A DNA stretch of 64,000 nt, taken from NCBI RefSeq assembly GCF_003704095.1, contig NW_020844573.1, positions 186,001 through 250,000 on the forward strand, in the 5' to 3' direction. The DNA is from Pocillopora damicornis (lineage: Eukaryota). Position 1 is the first letter of the stretch, and each line of letters opens with the position of its first letter. Below are positions 6,001-63,000 of this stretch, piece after piece. A program made the position numbers.

Positions 6001-9000
6001 CAAAATTCTAAAAGATTCCATCCTTGACCTTGTTCTGTTTATATCAACAGGAAGCTTCGCGTTGGCCACGTTTCTTTTGTAAGGCATAATTAAAATATGT
6101 TCCAAATTTGCATCCCGACTTATTGAATGTGAGCGCTCACAGCTTGAAGTGTTCTCCCGAAAGACCACACGTCGGGGTCATTTTTGATCAAATATTGATT
6201 TTGGGGAAAGTAGATGAATACGTATTAATTTGACAGCAGTTTACTCTCACGAAGATTCACTTGATACGTATATTTATCGTACTTGGAAATTAGCGCCGGC
6301 ATCAAATGAAAGATTGATAAGTTATTGTTGAAGTTTACCTTGACTTACGATACGCGGCGAGCTCAGTGTTTTCTTTAGCTTGTCACGAAAAGTTCTGTTA
6401 GCGAAAGCAGCTACAGAGACTCTCAATTACAAAAAAAAATTGCTAAAAATTGCTGGAGCTATGATGTGAATTAACTGCTACATACAGTCCAGCTTTACAA
6501 TACACCCAAAAGCACTTATTGTAATTGTCTGGTGAAGATTGCTTTACAATCGACTTAGGGCGTAGGGGTCTAATTGTTTTGGACACTTCGACAGTGGACT
6601 TACGGGATTTACTTAAGTGGTAAAATGTCGAAAGGCGTTGTGACACTAATGCTGCTAATGTGGATGTACATCTTCCACTTTCCCTCCCTCCTATCATCAA
6701 AATAGCTAGTTTTCATAACTTGAACAAATGTTGCTTGCAGGGGGCCGAGGTAAGCCTGGTCTTCAAATCGTCATCATTTTTTCCAACGGTTGAACATAGT
6801 GTTATATCAGTCGGAGCATTTTTAGTGATAGTCTAGTGCCGAAAACACTTATTTAACTTTGTATCATAAAATGCCTTAAATTGTAGTAAGTTTTACACAT
6901 CAATTTTCACGAAAAATAACTCTATCAAGATTTGATGTTGCGTGTTGTTTTTAACCACAGAAATGGCAAATAGCTTAATACGTACATATTATCGTGTACA
7001 TCGGAGGCAAGTCTGAGTGGGTTGAGACCACGAAATATTGCCGGCGTTGGGGGAAATTTGCAACAATTATTGATTATGTCAGCTATTGACGAATTTAGCA
7101 GGAAACAACGAGTGTTCTAGTTTCTTTCGGCTAGCGAATATGCTAAAACTGCTTACAGATTTCATAGCGTGGTGGAGCGCAAGGGAGATAGATTCTCTGA
7201 TAATATCGTATCACTTCAATACCTTTGAGTCTGCCACCGGCACGACTTAACTCGTGTTAGGATAACAAATAGTTATGTTTGATGCGACAACCGGTTGTCA
7301 TCAGTGCTTAGGTGTTGCCTCTGGGGTCGGCGTCCACAAAGAAACCCAAAACAATAGTATTGCTTCCACGTAACTAAGCCGCATCGAGGAAACGATCGGT
7401 CTCGTTCAGTTTGTTTGTCTTCAAACTGTCAACAAAGTGTAGAAGAAGGTCGGGTGAAGAACAGCACTAACTTTAGTTCGAGACTATAAATGTCACAAAT
7501 CGCAGGATATTCGCAAACAAATTTAACCTAGTGCCTTTTATCAATTTAGCTCAAGTGTGTGGTTAACCCAACGAGATGGAAGATCTTTCGCGCTTCCAGG
7601 CGATAACATCGCGTTGAAGGAGGGGCTTTTCAATTATAATCTCTACCAAGAAGTCGATGGGTTCTGGGGTACTGTTCACTCAAGAACAGCGTTTACATTA
7701 CAATCATTTGTTAAAATGAAACCAACGATGATTCGCATGACTCTTGATAGCCTCTTGTGGCCACTTGCGTGCGTTATCGCCCGTGACCTGATGACAGAAC
7801 AAATAAATAGATGTGACAAAAGTTGATATTCTTCTTCACTTGTTCGTGTCGTGAAAAGAGAAGCCTATAACACTACCATTTATTTTATTAATAATGGCTT
7901 GGGTTGCCATAACGTCCAATGAGGCTTCAGATCGATGAATGCTCTGTAGGGGGGAATTTGGTTCGTTTAACCGTCAAAATAGGCAATTAAAATTCTTTAG
8001 TTCGAGGTGGCATGTGCTTCCCTCCCCTTAATCAAACCGTCCTTATACGAATAGTAAATATTTGAAAATTACTTGTCGGCACCTCAGGACAAATATTGAC
8101 AATGCAAATTAATCCTATTCCACTCAAGAAGGTGACAAACAAAATCTCTAAGTGTGAACAGTGATCGTTTTCTTTTTTTGGTTTGATTGTTCGAGTTTGA
8201 TGCGAGAATCTTTTTCCATATTGTTTCTCTAGATTGCAAATGAGATTGTTCGAATAAGACGATTGCTATTAAAACACTAACAATTGATTGGATTCGATAG
8301 GGCGAACACATCGTAAAATATTTATCAACCCAAACACCCCGGGGGCGTTAACGCGATGATTGGATAACGAAATATCAACAACTTGCTAATGCCAATCAAA
8401 GACCGGTGTAGTTCAGTTACAATAGACCGAGAACTCACGCTGGGCTCCGAACACAACCAAGTACAGATGCTTGGATGAACGGTGAGTCGACTTCAAAGGA
8501 TAACACTACGACAGCAGCTTTCAAATCCCGCGCATTTTGTACAAGTTAACCGCGCTTCGCTGTGTGAGAGGTTTTGCGGAATGTTCGTGCATTTCCTAGT
8601 CGAAGAGTTCGACTTGCCCAGCACGACACAGATGCTTATTTAGTTCCATGGGAGGATGACAAAACTGTGAATTAAACAAAGAGCCAACCCGATTGATTCA
8701 TTTAAGTTTTCTGTCCGGTTTCTCACGCGATTATATTGTGGAGAAAGTGACCCGTCAAAGCCTTAAAGACAAAAGAATGAGTTCAGTGCAAGACTCTTTC
8801 AACGTTCCAAATGGCTCGCACTATCCTTTTACGCCAGCCCAAGGCGTGCGGTCCTCCGCTCGTCCGTCTACTCATGAGTTCATATTCACCGGACCTGATA
8901 GCTTCACCAGTTCTAGCGTCGCAGCTGTTCGTCCACCTAACAGCAGTATAAATCTAGCATCTGACACAACTGTCGCTAGAGCAGGCAGCAACCAGCGACA

Positions 9001-60000: not shown

Positions 60001-63000
60001 AACATGTTAGCCAAAACGACTCTCCACTACATGTTTGCTTTTGGAGAAACTGTGGACGTAACGGACTTCCGTTTAAAGCTAAGTACAAGCTGGTAAACCA
60101 CATCAGAGTGCATACGGGAGAAAAGCCATTCCCTTGTCCTTTCCCTGGATGTGGCAAGCTTTTCGCAAGGTCTGAGAATTTGAAAATTCACAAACGAACT
60201 CATACTGGCGAAAAGCCTTTTGTATGCGAGTTCCCCGGGTGCGATCGCCGTTTCGCCAACTCAAGCGATAGGAAAAAGCACTCCCATGTCCATACGTCAG
60301 ATAAGCCATACAACTGTAAATATCAAGGCTGCAACAAAAGCTACACACATCCAAGCTCTCTTCGTAAACACATGAAGTTGCACGGAATATCGCCTTCACC
60401 GCCGCCATTAATCGACTCAAGCGGACAAGACAGGAGTCATTTAAGTACCCCCTCACCGCCGGAACACATTCGTCTCTCGATCAGTTCGTCAAATAGCCAA
60501 AGCTGCTCGAGTTCACAAAGCGAACGTGAAGTCAACACCAACTGGTACTCGTGTTAGAGGTGGAAGAAAAAAGAGACAACTTATACACAACAACTTCCCT
60601 CAAGGTCAGTCCTGTTGTCAGTAAACCACAATGAGACAAACAAAGCGGTTACATTTTAAGGCCACGGTCGATCTCGACAAAGTAACGGACATTCTGTATG
60701 TAGAATAATGAGTTGTAGGTTTGATATTGTAGCTCTGTTAGAGATTCTATCAATAGTAGGCGTCATGGCTTGAAGACATGACAATAATAATGTACCGATT
60801 GAGAATATCCATATGACTTAAGTTCCTGTGGTGTAGAGTGAGTTAAGCTACCTCAGTTAGCTGTGATTCGGCTAACTACAGGAATCATCACAAAACAAAA
60901 TTATCTGAAAGTCATTCAGATATGGGAACTTTCTTTAGGTGGGGCAAAAATTGAAACAAAAAAACGATCATTCATGTTTGTTCGTTCCTTTAATTATGAC
61001 CGTTAAACGTTTTGCAAGGGACGTCAAAATTATTCACCTAATATTCTAATCTGTTTTTGCAAATGTAGTTCCTCTTCAAGAATGACTAGTTTTTGCTTTG
61101 TTTTTCTTTTGTGTGTAAAAAAGGAAGGATAATAATTAATTCCACTATTGTTTTCAATGCGACATTCAGATGCTCAAAGACAAACCAATACTTTTAACTT
61201 ACGCTAAATTAATATACCAAAACTACTTGCAGTCAACCTTCAACTATACAGAGATCCAAGAAATTATTGCACTCGCTACTCAATGTTTCTTTACCAAAGT
61301 GTATGCTCAGAAAAAGCAGTGCTTACTCTAGAAGAACAGCATGCACCCATGCGAACTGGCAAACTCTACCCGCTTCCTCAACACAAAATTTTTTGTACTT
61401 AACGGAGCAATGTTTCCAGTTTTTCTTTCAGTGGAACTTATGTGGTTAAACACGACATTTTGTTTCTTAGTGTTCGTTTTTAATTAAGCAACGAGAGCCT
61501 TTCGCTGATTTATTTCATTCGCTATTCTATTCCAGTCTTATTCTCTGATGCTAACTTATCAATGTATCGATACATTGTCAACTTTAACTCCGTTTGTTAA
61601 ACTTTACTACACTATTTGCTCTTCTTAAAACACTGTTAGTTGCAGAACAAACTATCAAGGAAATTAGAACTACTGATAAAAAAAAAGACAAATAAAACAA
61701 TTGTGAATGGAGCCGTGGGATAGTGTGTCAACCTCACTTGAAGCGATCCATCACGGATTTAAAGAATTACAGTCGTGTGGGAGAAAGTGTGATGGTAAGC
61801 CACCAATATGTTTTCCTCAGAGGAATATAACGAATATTTTGTTATTTTTGTGTGTCTGTGTGTGTTCACAAGACGCTAAGCGTTGTCCTTGTGAGTAAGA
61901 AAAATACATCTAGCACATTGAACAGGGAGGTCGAACTCAATAGGAACGGAAATTCCCTACGCGCTCTATTGATTGAAACAAAGGCTCTTCATTTTCAACT
62001 TTTGTTCGGTTAAAACTAGGATTATAAAATACCTGAATCCCTAAACATTATAGATTACAGCTTAAATGGATGTTTGATTTCGGTATATTTTTGACTGAAC
62101 TTGTTATCAAGTTAGATAACTTGTTAGTTTCTTCGAAATGAGGTCGGATCACAACGCCCGGCTCTGTTATGTGTAGGTGGGGTCAATTCAAAGCCTGCCG
62201 CATAGAATTCATCGCTAACTCCTTAGCAATTCAGTCGGAAAAACGACGCTATGTTTTCCCACTGACAAGCACACGTTGCTATGCAAGATAACAGGTTACC
62301 TCTTGAATGACCAAATCGATCAAACCATTTGATTTATTGTCAAACGACTAGGCACATTCAACCTCCTGAAACTGTCATTGGACGTGCACATTCAGAAACT
62401 TCTCGTCTCGCAAATCACGTTGAGATACCTAAAAGTAATTTAAAGATTTTTATCTCTCAAATAGGGCACGCACTGATACGAAAAAACTATTTAATGACTG
62501 TGATGATAATCATCTCTAGGCCTAAGGCCGCAAAATCTCGTGGAGACTGTCAACTCGAGTGCCTTGTTTGGGTACTTCTAAACATCCTTGATCTCCCTTC
62601 TTGTGATTCTCGTCCAACGTTCGTAAGGAAGCAGTTATCCACGTAATCCAAAGTCAAACTGAAGGACCATTATAACCAAACGTTCGAAGCTCGAAAGACA
62701 CAGCAGTATTTTTTAGAGGTCAGTACGTACAATAAAATAGTTCGGACTGCTATCGGACTGCTTCCTTCAACAACAGGCAGAATAATGCTCCATGCAGATT
62801 GGTAATTTGAGGGGCTACAATGAACGCCCTGCCTTTCCTTTAGACCGGTTTAAAGAGGAAACCCTTCTTTTTACAATCACAAACACTACTCTCCTAAAAT
62901 AACGGGCTAACAGACGTTATGATAAGCTTTACAACTACGCCGCGACTTTCTTTTGCCGCATGGAGCCAGACAGGTTTTGTTTTCTTTTTTCCCAAGACGT

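What the first reader, a model, noticed from the sequence alone, without database searches (positions are those of the whole stretch)
8777..60557. Head-to-tail cluster of three intron-free Zic genes in a gene-poor regulatory landscape
Seen: three complete Zic ORFs on the same strand with no coding introns, spaced ~29.7 kb and ~18 kb apart, and no other intact gene. Known: bilaterian Zic genes share an intron between ZF3 and ZF4, vertebrate Zic1/4 and Zic2/5 are divergent pairs, and anthozoans such as Nematostella have several Zic paralogs lacking that intron. Inference: this is an old cnidarian tandem Zic cluster whose long spacers hold shared long-range regulatory elements. More paralogs may lie outside the window.
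Basis: partly seen in the sequence, partly recalled or inferred. Interest (0 to 1): 0.7.

Follow-up and report, generated by a model that had tools for sequence, protein, structure and literature searches.

The report
Three tandem Zic genes, stony coral
This stretch of a Pocillopora coral genome carries three old, intact sister copies of the Zic developmental regulator gene in a row with almost nothing else between them, an arrangement of a kind already described in a sea anemone.

Summary
Three uninterrupted + strand ORFs (8777-10030, 39766-41169, 59235-60557) each encode a full five-finger Zic protein. They lie 29,735 and 18,065 bp apart. Outside them I found no convincing gene, only a decayed transposase-like remnant.

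The window is from a Pocillopora stony coral. Its proteins are 99.1-99.8% identical to named P. verrucosa/P. meandrina proteins.

The copies are ancient. Synonymous sites are saturated. Each copy falls in its own hexacoral clade (500/500), and each clade is sister to a clade holding named octocoral proteins (495, 404 and 401 of 500). A hexacoral-only expansion was recovered 0/500 times.

The idea of shared long-range enhancers in the spacers is untested.

"Intron-free" needs one caveat. Two Pocilloporidae annotations give Zic3 a 54-nt upstream coding exon (58824-58877) and a 384-nt intron.

Tandem, A-intron-less cnidarian Zic genes are already in print for Nematostella. This is a new member of a known kind, of modest interest.

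The parts
8777..10030 (+). Zic-1 coding sequence, one exon, 417 aa; finger domain ZF1-ZF5 at 9347-9817
   Evidence: ORF. Pfam zf_ZIC 71.3 bits. Five C2H2 fingers. 416/417 identical to P0239, named ZIC 4-like of Pocillopora verrucosa/meandrina. 71% identical over its full length to Exaiptasia 'ZIC 1' P0023.
10031..39765 (.). Spacer 1, 29,735 bp, with no recognisable gene
   Evidence: No open frame over 123 codons. No significant Pfam match. No Rfam family or tRNA. Two small repeat pairs only.
39766..41169 (+). Zic-2 coding sequence, one exon, 467 aa; finger domain at 40525-41004
   Evidence: ORF. Pfam zf_ZIC 48.6 bits. Five fingers. No mismatches and 2 gaps against P. meandrina P0253; 92% identical to Acropora P0254/P0255, which share the same start. 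Best solved-structure match is ZIC3, 2rpc, E 6.4e-70.
41170..59234 (.). Spacer 2, 18,065 bp; holds a transposase-like remnant and the candidate upstream exon of Zic-3
52683..53233 (-). Decayed transposase-like (hAT/FAM200-like lead) remnant; outer bounds only
   Evidence: The open frame 52797-53036 (-) has 26 relatives at E<=1e-3, the best 76% identical. tblastn with those relatives matches only this stretch of the window. No Pfam family passed threshold in 10 of the 26 relatives. The Atlas lead is hAT/DUF4371/FAM200, score 0.90-0.96.
58824..58877 (+). Candidate alternative first coding exon of Zic-3 (18 codons), followed by a GT..AG interval 58878-59261
   Evidence: The first 18 residues of P. 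meandrina P0268 are encoded here, and those of Stylophora P0269 nearly so. GT lies at 58878 and AG at 59260-59261, and the frame continues from 59262. This model comes from annotations in relatives and was not verified with transcripts.
59235..60557 (+). Zic-3 coding sequence as a single ORF, 440 aa; finger domain at 59907-60383
   Evidence: ORF. Pfam zf_ZIC 48.8 bits. Five fingers. 58% identical over its full length to Nv-ZicE P0041. The MDNLS... start is shared with Nv-ZicE, Porites and Desmophyllum proteins.

Best explanation
The window is a piece of a Pocillopora (Scleractinia) chromosome carrying a head-to-tail array of three functional Zic transcription-factor genes. Each is read from a single coding exon, and each encodes a five-finger Zic DNA-binding domain under strong purifying selection.

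The three are ancient paralogues. They arose by tandem duplication before hexacorals and octocorals separated, and at least one duplication may predate the anthozoan-medusozoan split. They have stayed linked in several anthozoan lineages.

Shown here: gene integrity, family membership, the age of the copies, and the near-emptiness of the spacers.

Inferred: each gene is driven by its own promoter, because no shared flanking sequence was found. The long, repeat-poor, CpG-undepleted spacers may be regulatory territory whose elements keep the genes together; I put that at about 0.35-0.4. By analogy with Nematostella NvzicC-E and Hydra Zic4, the products would act in tentacle, oral and neural cell specification. 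The confidence given below is for the core statement (an ancient tandem array of intact Zic genes), not for the regulatory inference.
For: Integrity and family. The ORFs are intact and pass Pfam zf_ZIC above cut-off. Each has five C2H2 fingers, a ZF1 Cys-Cys spacing of 11, 14 and 13 residues, and Trp in ZF1 and ZF2. The best solved-structure match is ZIC3.

Organism. Identity to named Pocillopora proteins is 99.1-99.8%.

Selection and age. Over 116 finger-domain codons, amino-acid identity is 91-92%, third-position identity only 44-47%, pS 0.89-0.92 and dN about 0.05. The only DNA similarity between the copies is the finger-coding stretch, at 77-78%.

Tree (NJ, 86 sequences, 374 columns, 500 bootstraps). 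Each hexacoral clade scored 500/500. These clades contain Nv-ZicE (Zic-3 type), Exaiptasia ZIC 1 and a Nematostella partial protein (Zic-1 type), and Actinostola and Acropora proteins (Zic-2 type). The sister clades with named Paramuricea or Dendronephthya proteins scored 495, 404 and 401. Zic-1 type plus a Hydra/Scolionema clade scored 438. The three hexacoral clades grouped together 0/500 times.

Linkage elsewhere. P. meandrina accessions run CAH3160713...715...719 in the window's order, and the Zic-2 and Zic-3 types sit on a contig of 1,047,604 bp. Actinostola QZH41_004774 (Zic-2 type) and QZH41_004775 (Zic-1 type) are neighbours on a contig of 333,224 bp. Unnamed records of all three types share the contig length 985,314. 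Pairs of types share 1,061,309, 630,004 and 141,405. Octocoral-like Zic-1 and Zic-2 types share four lengths.

Literature (passages only). Four of the five Nematostella zic genes are tandem on one scaffold, and NvzicC-E have similar tentacle and oral expression (PMC2988786). The A-intron was absent from the 8 cnidarian Zic genes examined (PMC2222250). Hydra Zic4 acts in tentacle formation (PMC9788771).

Spacers. They hold only three small internal repeat pairs, and mean CpG o/e is 0.91.
Against: No transcript, chromatin or cross-species DNA data were available. Expression, promoters and any enhancer content are therefore inferred.

The linkage evidence outside the window is indirect, resting on equal contig lengths, accession order and locus-tag adjacency. 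It gives no orientation.

No shared contig length was seen for the octocoral-like Zic-3 type.

The tree is distance-based and the deep nodes are weak; the first run gave values as low as 15-50. The 'octocoral' and 'medusozoan' labels rest on one or two named members per clade.

The flanks of the three genes share nothing beyond chance, which gives no positive sign of common regulatory sequence.

Gaps in the P. meandrina accession series (one number between Zic-1 and Zic-2, three between Zic-2 and Zic-3) may mean that annotation places gene models in the spacers.

Zic-3 may have a 5' coding intron.
Confidence: 0.85

Rival explanations
1. The linkage is historical inertia. The three genes are ancient tandem duplicates, each with private regulatory sequence. 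They remain neighbours only because anthozoan genomes rearrange slowly, not because shared enhancers hold them together.
For: No sequence is shared between the 3 kb upstream or 2 kb downstream flanks beyond shuffled controls: best real scores 26.8 and 31.1 bits against shuffle maxima of 34.0 and 31.1. The octocoral-like Zic-3 type shares no contig length with the other two types, so the array may have broken in that lineage without loss of the genes.
Against: Linkage of at least two types recurs in every anthozoan group for which a clue was available. The spacers are long and almost free of repeats and genes. NvzicC-E show similar expression (PMC2988786, passages).
Confidence: 0.45
2. The spacers are not empty. 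They hold multi-exon genes or non-coding RNA genes that an ORF-based scan cannot see.
For: The P. meandrina protein accessions for the three orthologues are not consecutive (713, 715, 719). This would fit one and three further gene models in between, if numbering follows genome order. A short annotated exon at 58824-58877 was invisible to the ORF scan.
Against: No spacer frame exceeds 124 codons. The 150 longest of 208 frames gave no significant Pfam match. The codon-usage score of the 30 frames examined was -0.32 to 0.09 per codon, against 0.36-0.38 for the Zic ORFs; that model was trained on the Zic ORFs themselves. The one frame with relatives is a decayed transposase-like remnant, the sort of thing gene predictors often call. 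No Rfam family was found.
Confidence: 0.15
3. The three copies are a recent, lineage-specific expansion, or have been homogenised by gene conversion, within stony corals.
For: Fingers 3 to 5 are nearly identical in protein sequence.
Against: Third codon positions are only 44-47% identical and pS is 0.89-0.92. Each copy has its own orthologues in Nematostella, Exaiptasia, Actinostola, Acropora, Porites or Desmophyllum. The grouping of the three hexacoral clades was recovered 0/500 times.
Confidence: 0.02
4. The genes lack introns because they are retrocopies of a spliced parent gene.
For: Each has a single coding exon.
Against: Lack of the A-intron is the general cnidarian state: it was absent in the 8 cnidarian genes examined (PMC2222250, passage). 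The copies are tandem, on the same strand, and linked in several anthozoan lineages, which dispersed retrocopies would not be. No intron-bearing Zic copy turned up in the window.
Confidence: 0.02

Closest known systems
Nematostella vectensis zic genes (NvZicA-E), four of five tandem on one scaffold (Aruga et al. 2006, as cited in PMC2988786; passages seen; the 2006 paper itself was not seen)
   Same: Anthozoan, tandem, with several paralogues and no bilaterian A-intron. The window's Zic-3 is the orthologue of Nv-ZicE: 58% identity over the full length, the same MDNL start, and clade support of 500/500. A partial Nematostella protein (P0123) falls in the Zic-1 clade.
   Different: A different order (Scleractinia, not Actiniaria). 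Three genes are visible here rather than four. I could not assign NvZicA-D to the window's types because only Nv-ZicE and one unnamed partial protein came back from the searches. The cited authors read the anemone array as tandem duplication from one ancestral gene, whereas here the copies appear to predate the hexacoral-octocoral split.
Vertebrate ZIC1/ZIC4 and ZIC2/ZIC5 gene pairs
   Same: Zic paralogues kept as close neighbours over long evolutionary time, in gene-poor surroundings.
   Different: The vertebrate pairs are divergently oriented and carry the bilaterian intron between ZF3 and ZF4. They arose independently within chordates. The coral genes are head-to-tail and read straight through ZF3-ZF4.
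Hydra Zic genes (four members; Zic4 needed for tentacle formation; PMC9788771, passages)
   Same: Cnidarian Zic paralogues. A Hydra protein named 'ZIC 4' (P0094) and Scolionema Zic group with the Zic-1 type in 438/500 bootstraps.
   Different: I saw no information on whether the Hydra genes are linked. Function in corals is untested.

Membership tests
Zic family (Gli/Glis/Nkl/Zic superfamily) | Five tandem C2H2 zinc fingers | tested here: met
   Five fingers in each protein, with every Cys and His in place. The feature is as defined in PMC2988786 (passage).
Zic family (Gli/Glis/Nkl/Zic superfamily) | Enlarged spacing between the two cysteines of ZF1 | tested here: met
   11, 14 and 13 residues in ZF1, against 4 in ZF2-ZF5. 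Criterion from PMC2988786.
Zic family (Gli/Glis/Nkl/Zic superfamily) | Profile match to the Zic-specific first-finger model (Pfam PF18366 zf_ZIC) above the gathering score | tested here: met
   71.3, 48.6 and 48.8 bits against a cut-off of 26.3. The best solved-structure match of Zic-2 is human ZIC3, 2rpc, E 6.4e-70, ahead of GLI at 7.5e-47. Only Zic-2 was searched against solved structures.
Zic family (Gli/Glis/Nkl/Zic superfamily) | Tandem CWCH2 motif (Trp between the cysteines of ZF1 and of ZF2) | tested here: met
   Trp is present in ZF1 and ZF2 and absent from ZF3-5 in all three proteins. The motif is as described in the abstract of PMC2837044 (search listing).
Zic family (Gli/Glis/Nkl/Zic superfamily) | ZOC and ZF-NC regions N-terminal to the fingers (present in many members, not all) | tested here: inconclusive
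   A relaxed pattern derived from the RDFL-(1-2 aa)-RR consensus quoted in PMC2988786 matched only Zic-3, at residue 93. Zic-1 and Zic-2 have only loosely similar stretches in the same alignment columns. ZF-NC was not tested formally.
Cnidarian-type Zic gene | No intron at the bilaterian A-intron position between ZF3 and ZF4 | tested here: met
   All three ORFs are continuous through the whole finger domain. Criterion from PMC2988786 and PMC2222250.
Anthozoan tandem Zic array (as in Nematostella) | Several Zic paralogues on one strand, as neighbours with no other gene between them | tested here: met
   Short-exon genes in the spacers are not excluded.
Anthozoan tandem Zic array (as in Nematostella) | Orthology of the members, and the same order and orientation, in other anthozoans | tested here: inconclusive
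   Orthology is supported. Orientation and order elsewhere could not be read, because no coral or anemone DNA collection was open.

The most novel reading that the evidence does not exclude
The three-gene Zic array is a conserved anthozoan-wide, possibly cnidarian-wide, regulatory unit more than half a billion years old. On this reading the three paralogue types were already in tandem in the anthozoan ancestor. They are held together by enhancers in the long, repeat-poor, unmethylated spacers that serve more than one of the genes. This would be an independent parallel to the vertebrate ZIC1/4 and ZIC2/5 pairs.
Probability: 0.3. Interest if true: 0.55.

Novelty: new member of a known kind. Interest (0 to 1): 0.3.

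Why it matters
Zic genes are core developmental regulators. How their paralogues arose and why they stay clustered is a standing question for vertebrates.

If the three coral paralogue types and their linkage do date to the anthozoan ancestor, cnidarians would offer an independent, intron-free case of a long-lived Zic cluster. The shared-enhancer explanation for cluster persistence could then be tested there with existing coral and anemone genomes and chromatin data.

As it stands, the locus is an ordinary, already annotated set of coral genes. It extends a pattern published for Nematostella.

Tried and rejected
1. Sea anemone origin. I first took the window for a sea anemone, because the best named full-length hit of Zic-1 was Exaiptasia (71%). 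This was wrong. Named scleractinian proteins were hidden inside clusters with unnamed representatives.

I replaced it with a numpy NJ.

3. The bacterial-type promoter/terminator scan near Zic-3 was at chance level, 8 sites against 6.6 +/- 2.8 expected, and is irrelevant to a eukaryote.

4. Poly(A)-signal-like hexamers occur about once per 415 nt on the + strand (154 in the window), so their positions after the stop codons say nothing.

5. A codon-usage score for spacer frames is circular, because it was trained on the Zic ORFs. I use it only as a weak negative.

6. Pfam found no family passing threshold in 10 of the 26 relatives of the spacer remnant; one sub-threshold mIF3 match (21.6 bits against a cut-off of 33.8) was discarded. 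The hAT-like label rests on the Atlas lead alone.

7. Literature searches found no paper describing a scleractinian Zic array, or orthology of anthozoan Zic paralogue types. One search was mostly noise. The library lacks Aruga et al. 2006 (Genomics) and Aruga & Hatayama 2018, which may cover part of this.

9. The exons of the two-exon Zic-3 model were not joined for a search; the exon was located by searching it alone.

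
Full report
WHAT IS THERE

The 64-kb window has no N and about 37% G+C. It holds exactly three long ORFs, all on the + strand:
- 8777-10030, 417 aa counted from the first ATG (the open frame begins at 8693);
- 39766-41169, 467 aa;
- 59235-60557, 440 aa.

Each start codon is the first in-frame ATG after an in-frame stop 12-40 codons upstream. From stop to next ATG the spacers measure 29,735 and 18,065 bp. These figures match the finding.

FAMILY

All three proteins exceed the Pfam gathering score for the Zic first-finger model PF18366, and for zf-C2H2_15 and zf-C2H2. 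Each has five complete C2H2 fingers. Their ZF1 Cys-Cys spacing is 11, 14 and 13 residues. This enlarged spacing is the feature that PMC2988786 (passages) gives as the hallmark separating Zic from Gli, Glis and Nkl. Tryptophan lies between the cysteines of ZF1 and ZF2 only, which is the tandem CWCH2 motif (abstract of PMC2837044 in the listing).

The best solved-structure match of Zic-2 is human ZIC3 (2rpc, E 6.4e-70), ahead of GLI. Only Zic-2 was searched there.

The ORFs read straight through ZF3-ZF4. That is where all bilaterian Zic genes examined carry an intron and where the 8 cnidarian genes examined did not (PMC2222250 and PMC2988786, passages).

ZOC-like sequence is weak. A relaxed pattern built from the consensus quoted matched only Zic-3.

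ORGANISM

I first read the locus as a sea anemone's, because the best named full-length hits were Exaiptasia 'ZIC 1' (71% to Zic-1) and Nv-ZicE (58% to Zic-3). That was wrong.

The exact window proteins are in the public collection. They sit in 90% clusters whose named members are scleractinian. Identities are:
- Zic-1: 416/417 identical to a protein named for Pocillopora verrucosa and P. meandrina.
- Zic-2: no mismatch and two gaps against P. meandrina; 92% to Acropora.
- Zic-3: 4 mismatches in 434 aligned residues against P. meandrina; 96% to Stylophora; 90% to Desmophyllum; 87% to Porites.

The window is therefore Pocillopora, a stony coral. It is not human. The genes are already annotated in public databases.

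AGE OF THE COPIES

Overall the three proteins are 48-50% identical. They are near-identical in fingers 2-5 and diverged elsewhere.

Over 116 finger-domain codons, amino-acid identity is 91-92% but third-position identity only 44-47%. That gives pS 0.89-0.92 (saturated) and dN about 0.05. This means strong purifying selection, ancient divergence and no recent gene conversion. The finger-coding stretch, at 77-78%, is also the only DNA similarity between the genes.

I ran a neighbour-joining tree with Kimura-corrected distances on 86 sequences, 374 columns and 500 bootstraps (an earlier version is). Results:
- Each window protein falls in its own hexacoral clade at 500/500. These clades hold the named Nematostella, Exaiptasia, Actinostola, Acropora, Porites, Stylophora and Desmophyllum proteins.
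- Each of those clades is sister to a clade holding named octocoral proteins (Paramuricea, Dendronephthya): 495, 404 and 401 of 500.
- The Zic-1 type further groups with a clade holding Hydra and Scolionema Zic: 438/500.
- A hexacoral-specific expansion, with all three hexacoral clades together, appeared 0/500 times.

Three caveats apply. The method is distance-based. The deepest nodes are weak (as low as 15-50%). The clade labels rest on one or two named members each.

LINKAGE ELSEWHERE

No coral or anemone DNA collection was open, so the evidence here is indirect.
- P. meandrina accessions for the three orthologues are CAH3160713, CAH3160715 and CAH3160719, in the window's order. The Zic-2 and Zic-3 types are both reported on a contig of 1,047,604 bp.
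- In the anemone Actinostola, the Zic-2 type carries locus tag QZH41_004774 and the Zic-1 type QZH41_004775. Both are on a contig of 333,224 bp.
- Among unnamed records, all three types are reported on a contig of 985,314 bp.
- Pairs of types share contig lengths of 1,061,309, 630,004 and 141,405 bp.
- Octocoral-like Zic-1 and Zic-2 types share four contig lengths: 556,140, 322,214, 1,233,674 and 491,304 bp.
- No shared length was seen for the octocoral-like Zic-3 type.

PMC2988786 (passage) reports that four of the five Nematostella zic genes are tandem on one scaffold.

THE SPACERS

Outside the Zic ORFs there are 208 stop-to-stop frames of 60 codons or more, the longest 124 codons. The 150 longest gave five Pfam matches with E from 0.00096 to 0.0074. 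This is about what 150 tests give by chance, and none belongs to a transposon family. The remaining 58 frames of 60-66 codons were not scanned.

Further negatives:
- Rfam gave 0 families at gathering score.
- ARAGORN gave 0 tRNAs.
- tblastn with the three proteins found no fourth copy or pseudogene, and 0 of 891 matches from 237 retrieved proteins fell outside the ORFs.

Internal repeats are few. There are three small pairs and two short tandem arrays.

Mean CpG observed/expected is 0.91, so there is no CpG depletion. From general knowledge of invertebrate mosaic methylation, that fits an unmethylated, developmentally regulated domain. This is inference.

One spacer frame, 52797-53036 on the minus strand, has 26 relatives at E<=1e-3 among 1.84 billion representatives. 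Those relatives match only 52683-53233 in the window. Ten of the 26 gave no Pfam family that passed. The Atlas places a 657-aa relative next to hAT/DUF4371/FAM200-like clusters with scores of 0.90-0.96, which is a lead only.

The remnant covers roughly the C-terminal 60% of that relative, in four aligned pieces. It has at least two frame changes and at least one in-frame stop. It is a dead transposase fragment, not a gene.

The gaps in the P. meandrina accession series may mean that annotation places models in the spacers. I could not look at them.

THE INTRON CAVEAT

The P. meandrina and Stylophora proteins of the Zic-3 type are 449 aa long and begin differently from the window ORF. Their first 18 residues are encoded at 58824-58877 in the window. 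GT follows at 58878, AG lies at 59260-59261, and the frame continues at 59262. That model has a 54-nt first coding exon and a 384-nt intron, and it drops the first 9 codons of the ORF.

Against it, the MDNLS... start of the single ORF is shared with the protein named Nv-ZicE (which I recall as cDNA-derived; no call showed this) and with Porites and Desmophyllum proteins. Transcript data would decide. I searched the exon alone and did not join the exons.

For Zic-1 and Zic-2, the named Pocillopora and Acropora proteins start as the window ORFs do.

HOW IT MOST LIKELY WORKS

Three paralogous five-finger transcription factors are each transcribed from their own promoter. I infer separate promoters because the 3 kb upstream and 2 kb downstream flanks share nothing beyond shuffled controls.

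By analogy, they would act in tentacle, oral and neural cell specification. NvzicC-E are expressed in tentacle and oral tissue and NvzicE in the apical tuft (PMC2988786, passages). Hydra Zic4 is needed for tentacles (PMC9788771, passages).

I put it at about 0.35-0.4, against about 0.45 for simple persistence of an old tandem array with private regulatory sequence.

COMPARISON AND NOVELTY

The nearest known case is the Nematostella zic array. The window adds a scleractinian example. It also adds evidence that three paralogue types, and the linkage of at least two of them, predate the hexacoral-octocoral split.

My five literature searches found no paper stating this for corals. The library lacks Aruga et al. 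2006 and Aruga & Hatayama 2018. Supplements that I could not open may also bear on the orthology: the alignment file of PMC2988786 and table S1 of PMC9788771.

Verdict: a real and correctly observed locus, and a new member of a known kind. Interest is about 0.3.

Noticed in passing
window 52683-53233, minus strand: Decayed transposase-like remnant in the Zic-2/Zic-3 spacer. One 80-codon frame has 26 relatives at E<=1e-3. It covers about the C-terminal 60% of a 657-aa relative in four pieces, with at least two frame changes and at least one in-frame stop. The Atlas lead is hAT/DUF4371/FAM200-like, with no Pfam confirmation.
   Followed up: partly
window 58824-58877 (+), with 58878-59261: An 18-codon ATG-initiated exon and a 384-nt GT..AG interval. 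Annotated Zic-3-type proteins of P. meandrina and Stylophora use these in place of the first 9 codons of the single ORF.
   Followed up: partly
window 50000-54000: A marked excess of C over G on the + strand (GC skew -0.13 to -0.27 per 500 nt). There are also degenerate ~20-nt tandem units around 51135-51188, next to the transposase-like remnant. This may be the rest of the same old insertion.
   Followed up: no
window 27749-27868 and 29988-30105: An inverted repeat pair of about 120 nt at 80% identity, 2.1 kb apart, in spacer 1. It could be the ends of a small DNA transposon.
   Followed up: no
window 31190-31339 / 31335-31485 and 52512-52602 / 52642-52735: Two adjacent direct repeat pairs, at 72% and 85% identity. 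The second lies beside or within the transposase-like remnant.
   Followed up: no
whole window: Mean CpG observed/expected is 0.91 (sd 0.21) in 500-nt windows, so there is no CpG depletion anywhere in the locus.
   Followed up: no
P. meandrina proteins P0239, P0253, P0268 (no locus held): The accession numbers of the three orthologues are in the window's order but not consecutive (CAH3160713...715...719). That annotation may therefore hold one and three further models between them.
   Followed up: no
proteins P0124 and P0304 (Actinostola sp., no locus held): The Zic-1-type model QZH41_004775 is 608 aa and matches Zic-1 only over residues 22-302. It carries a non-Zic Pfam domain, PF22178, in the precomputed list. 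It looks like a fused or mis-predicted gene model.
   Followed up: no
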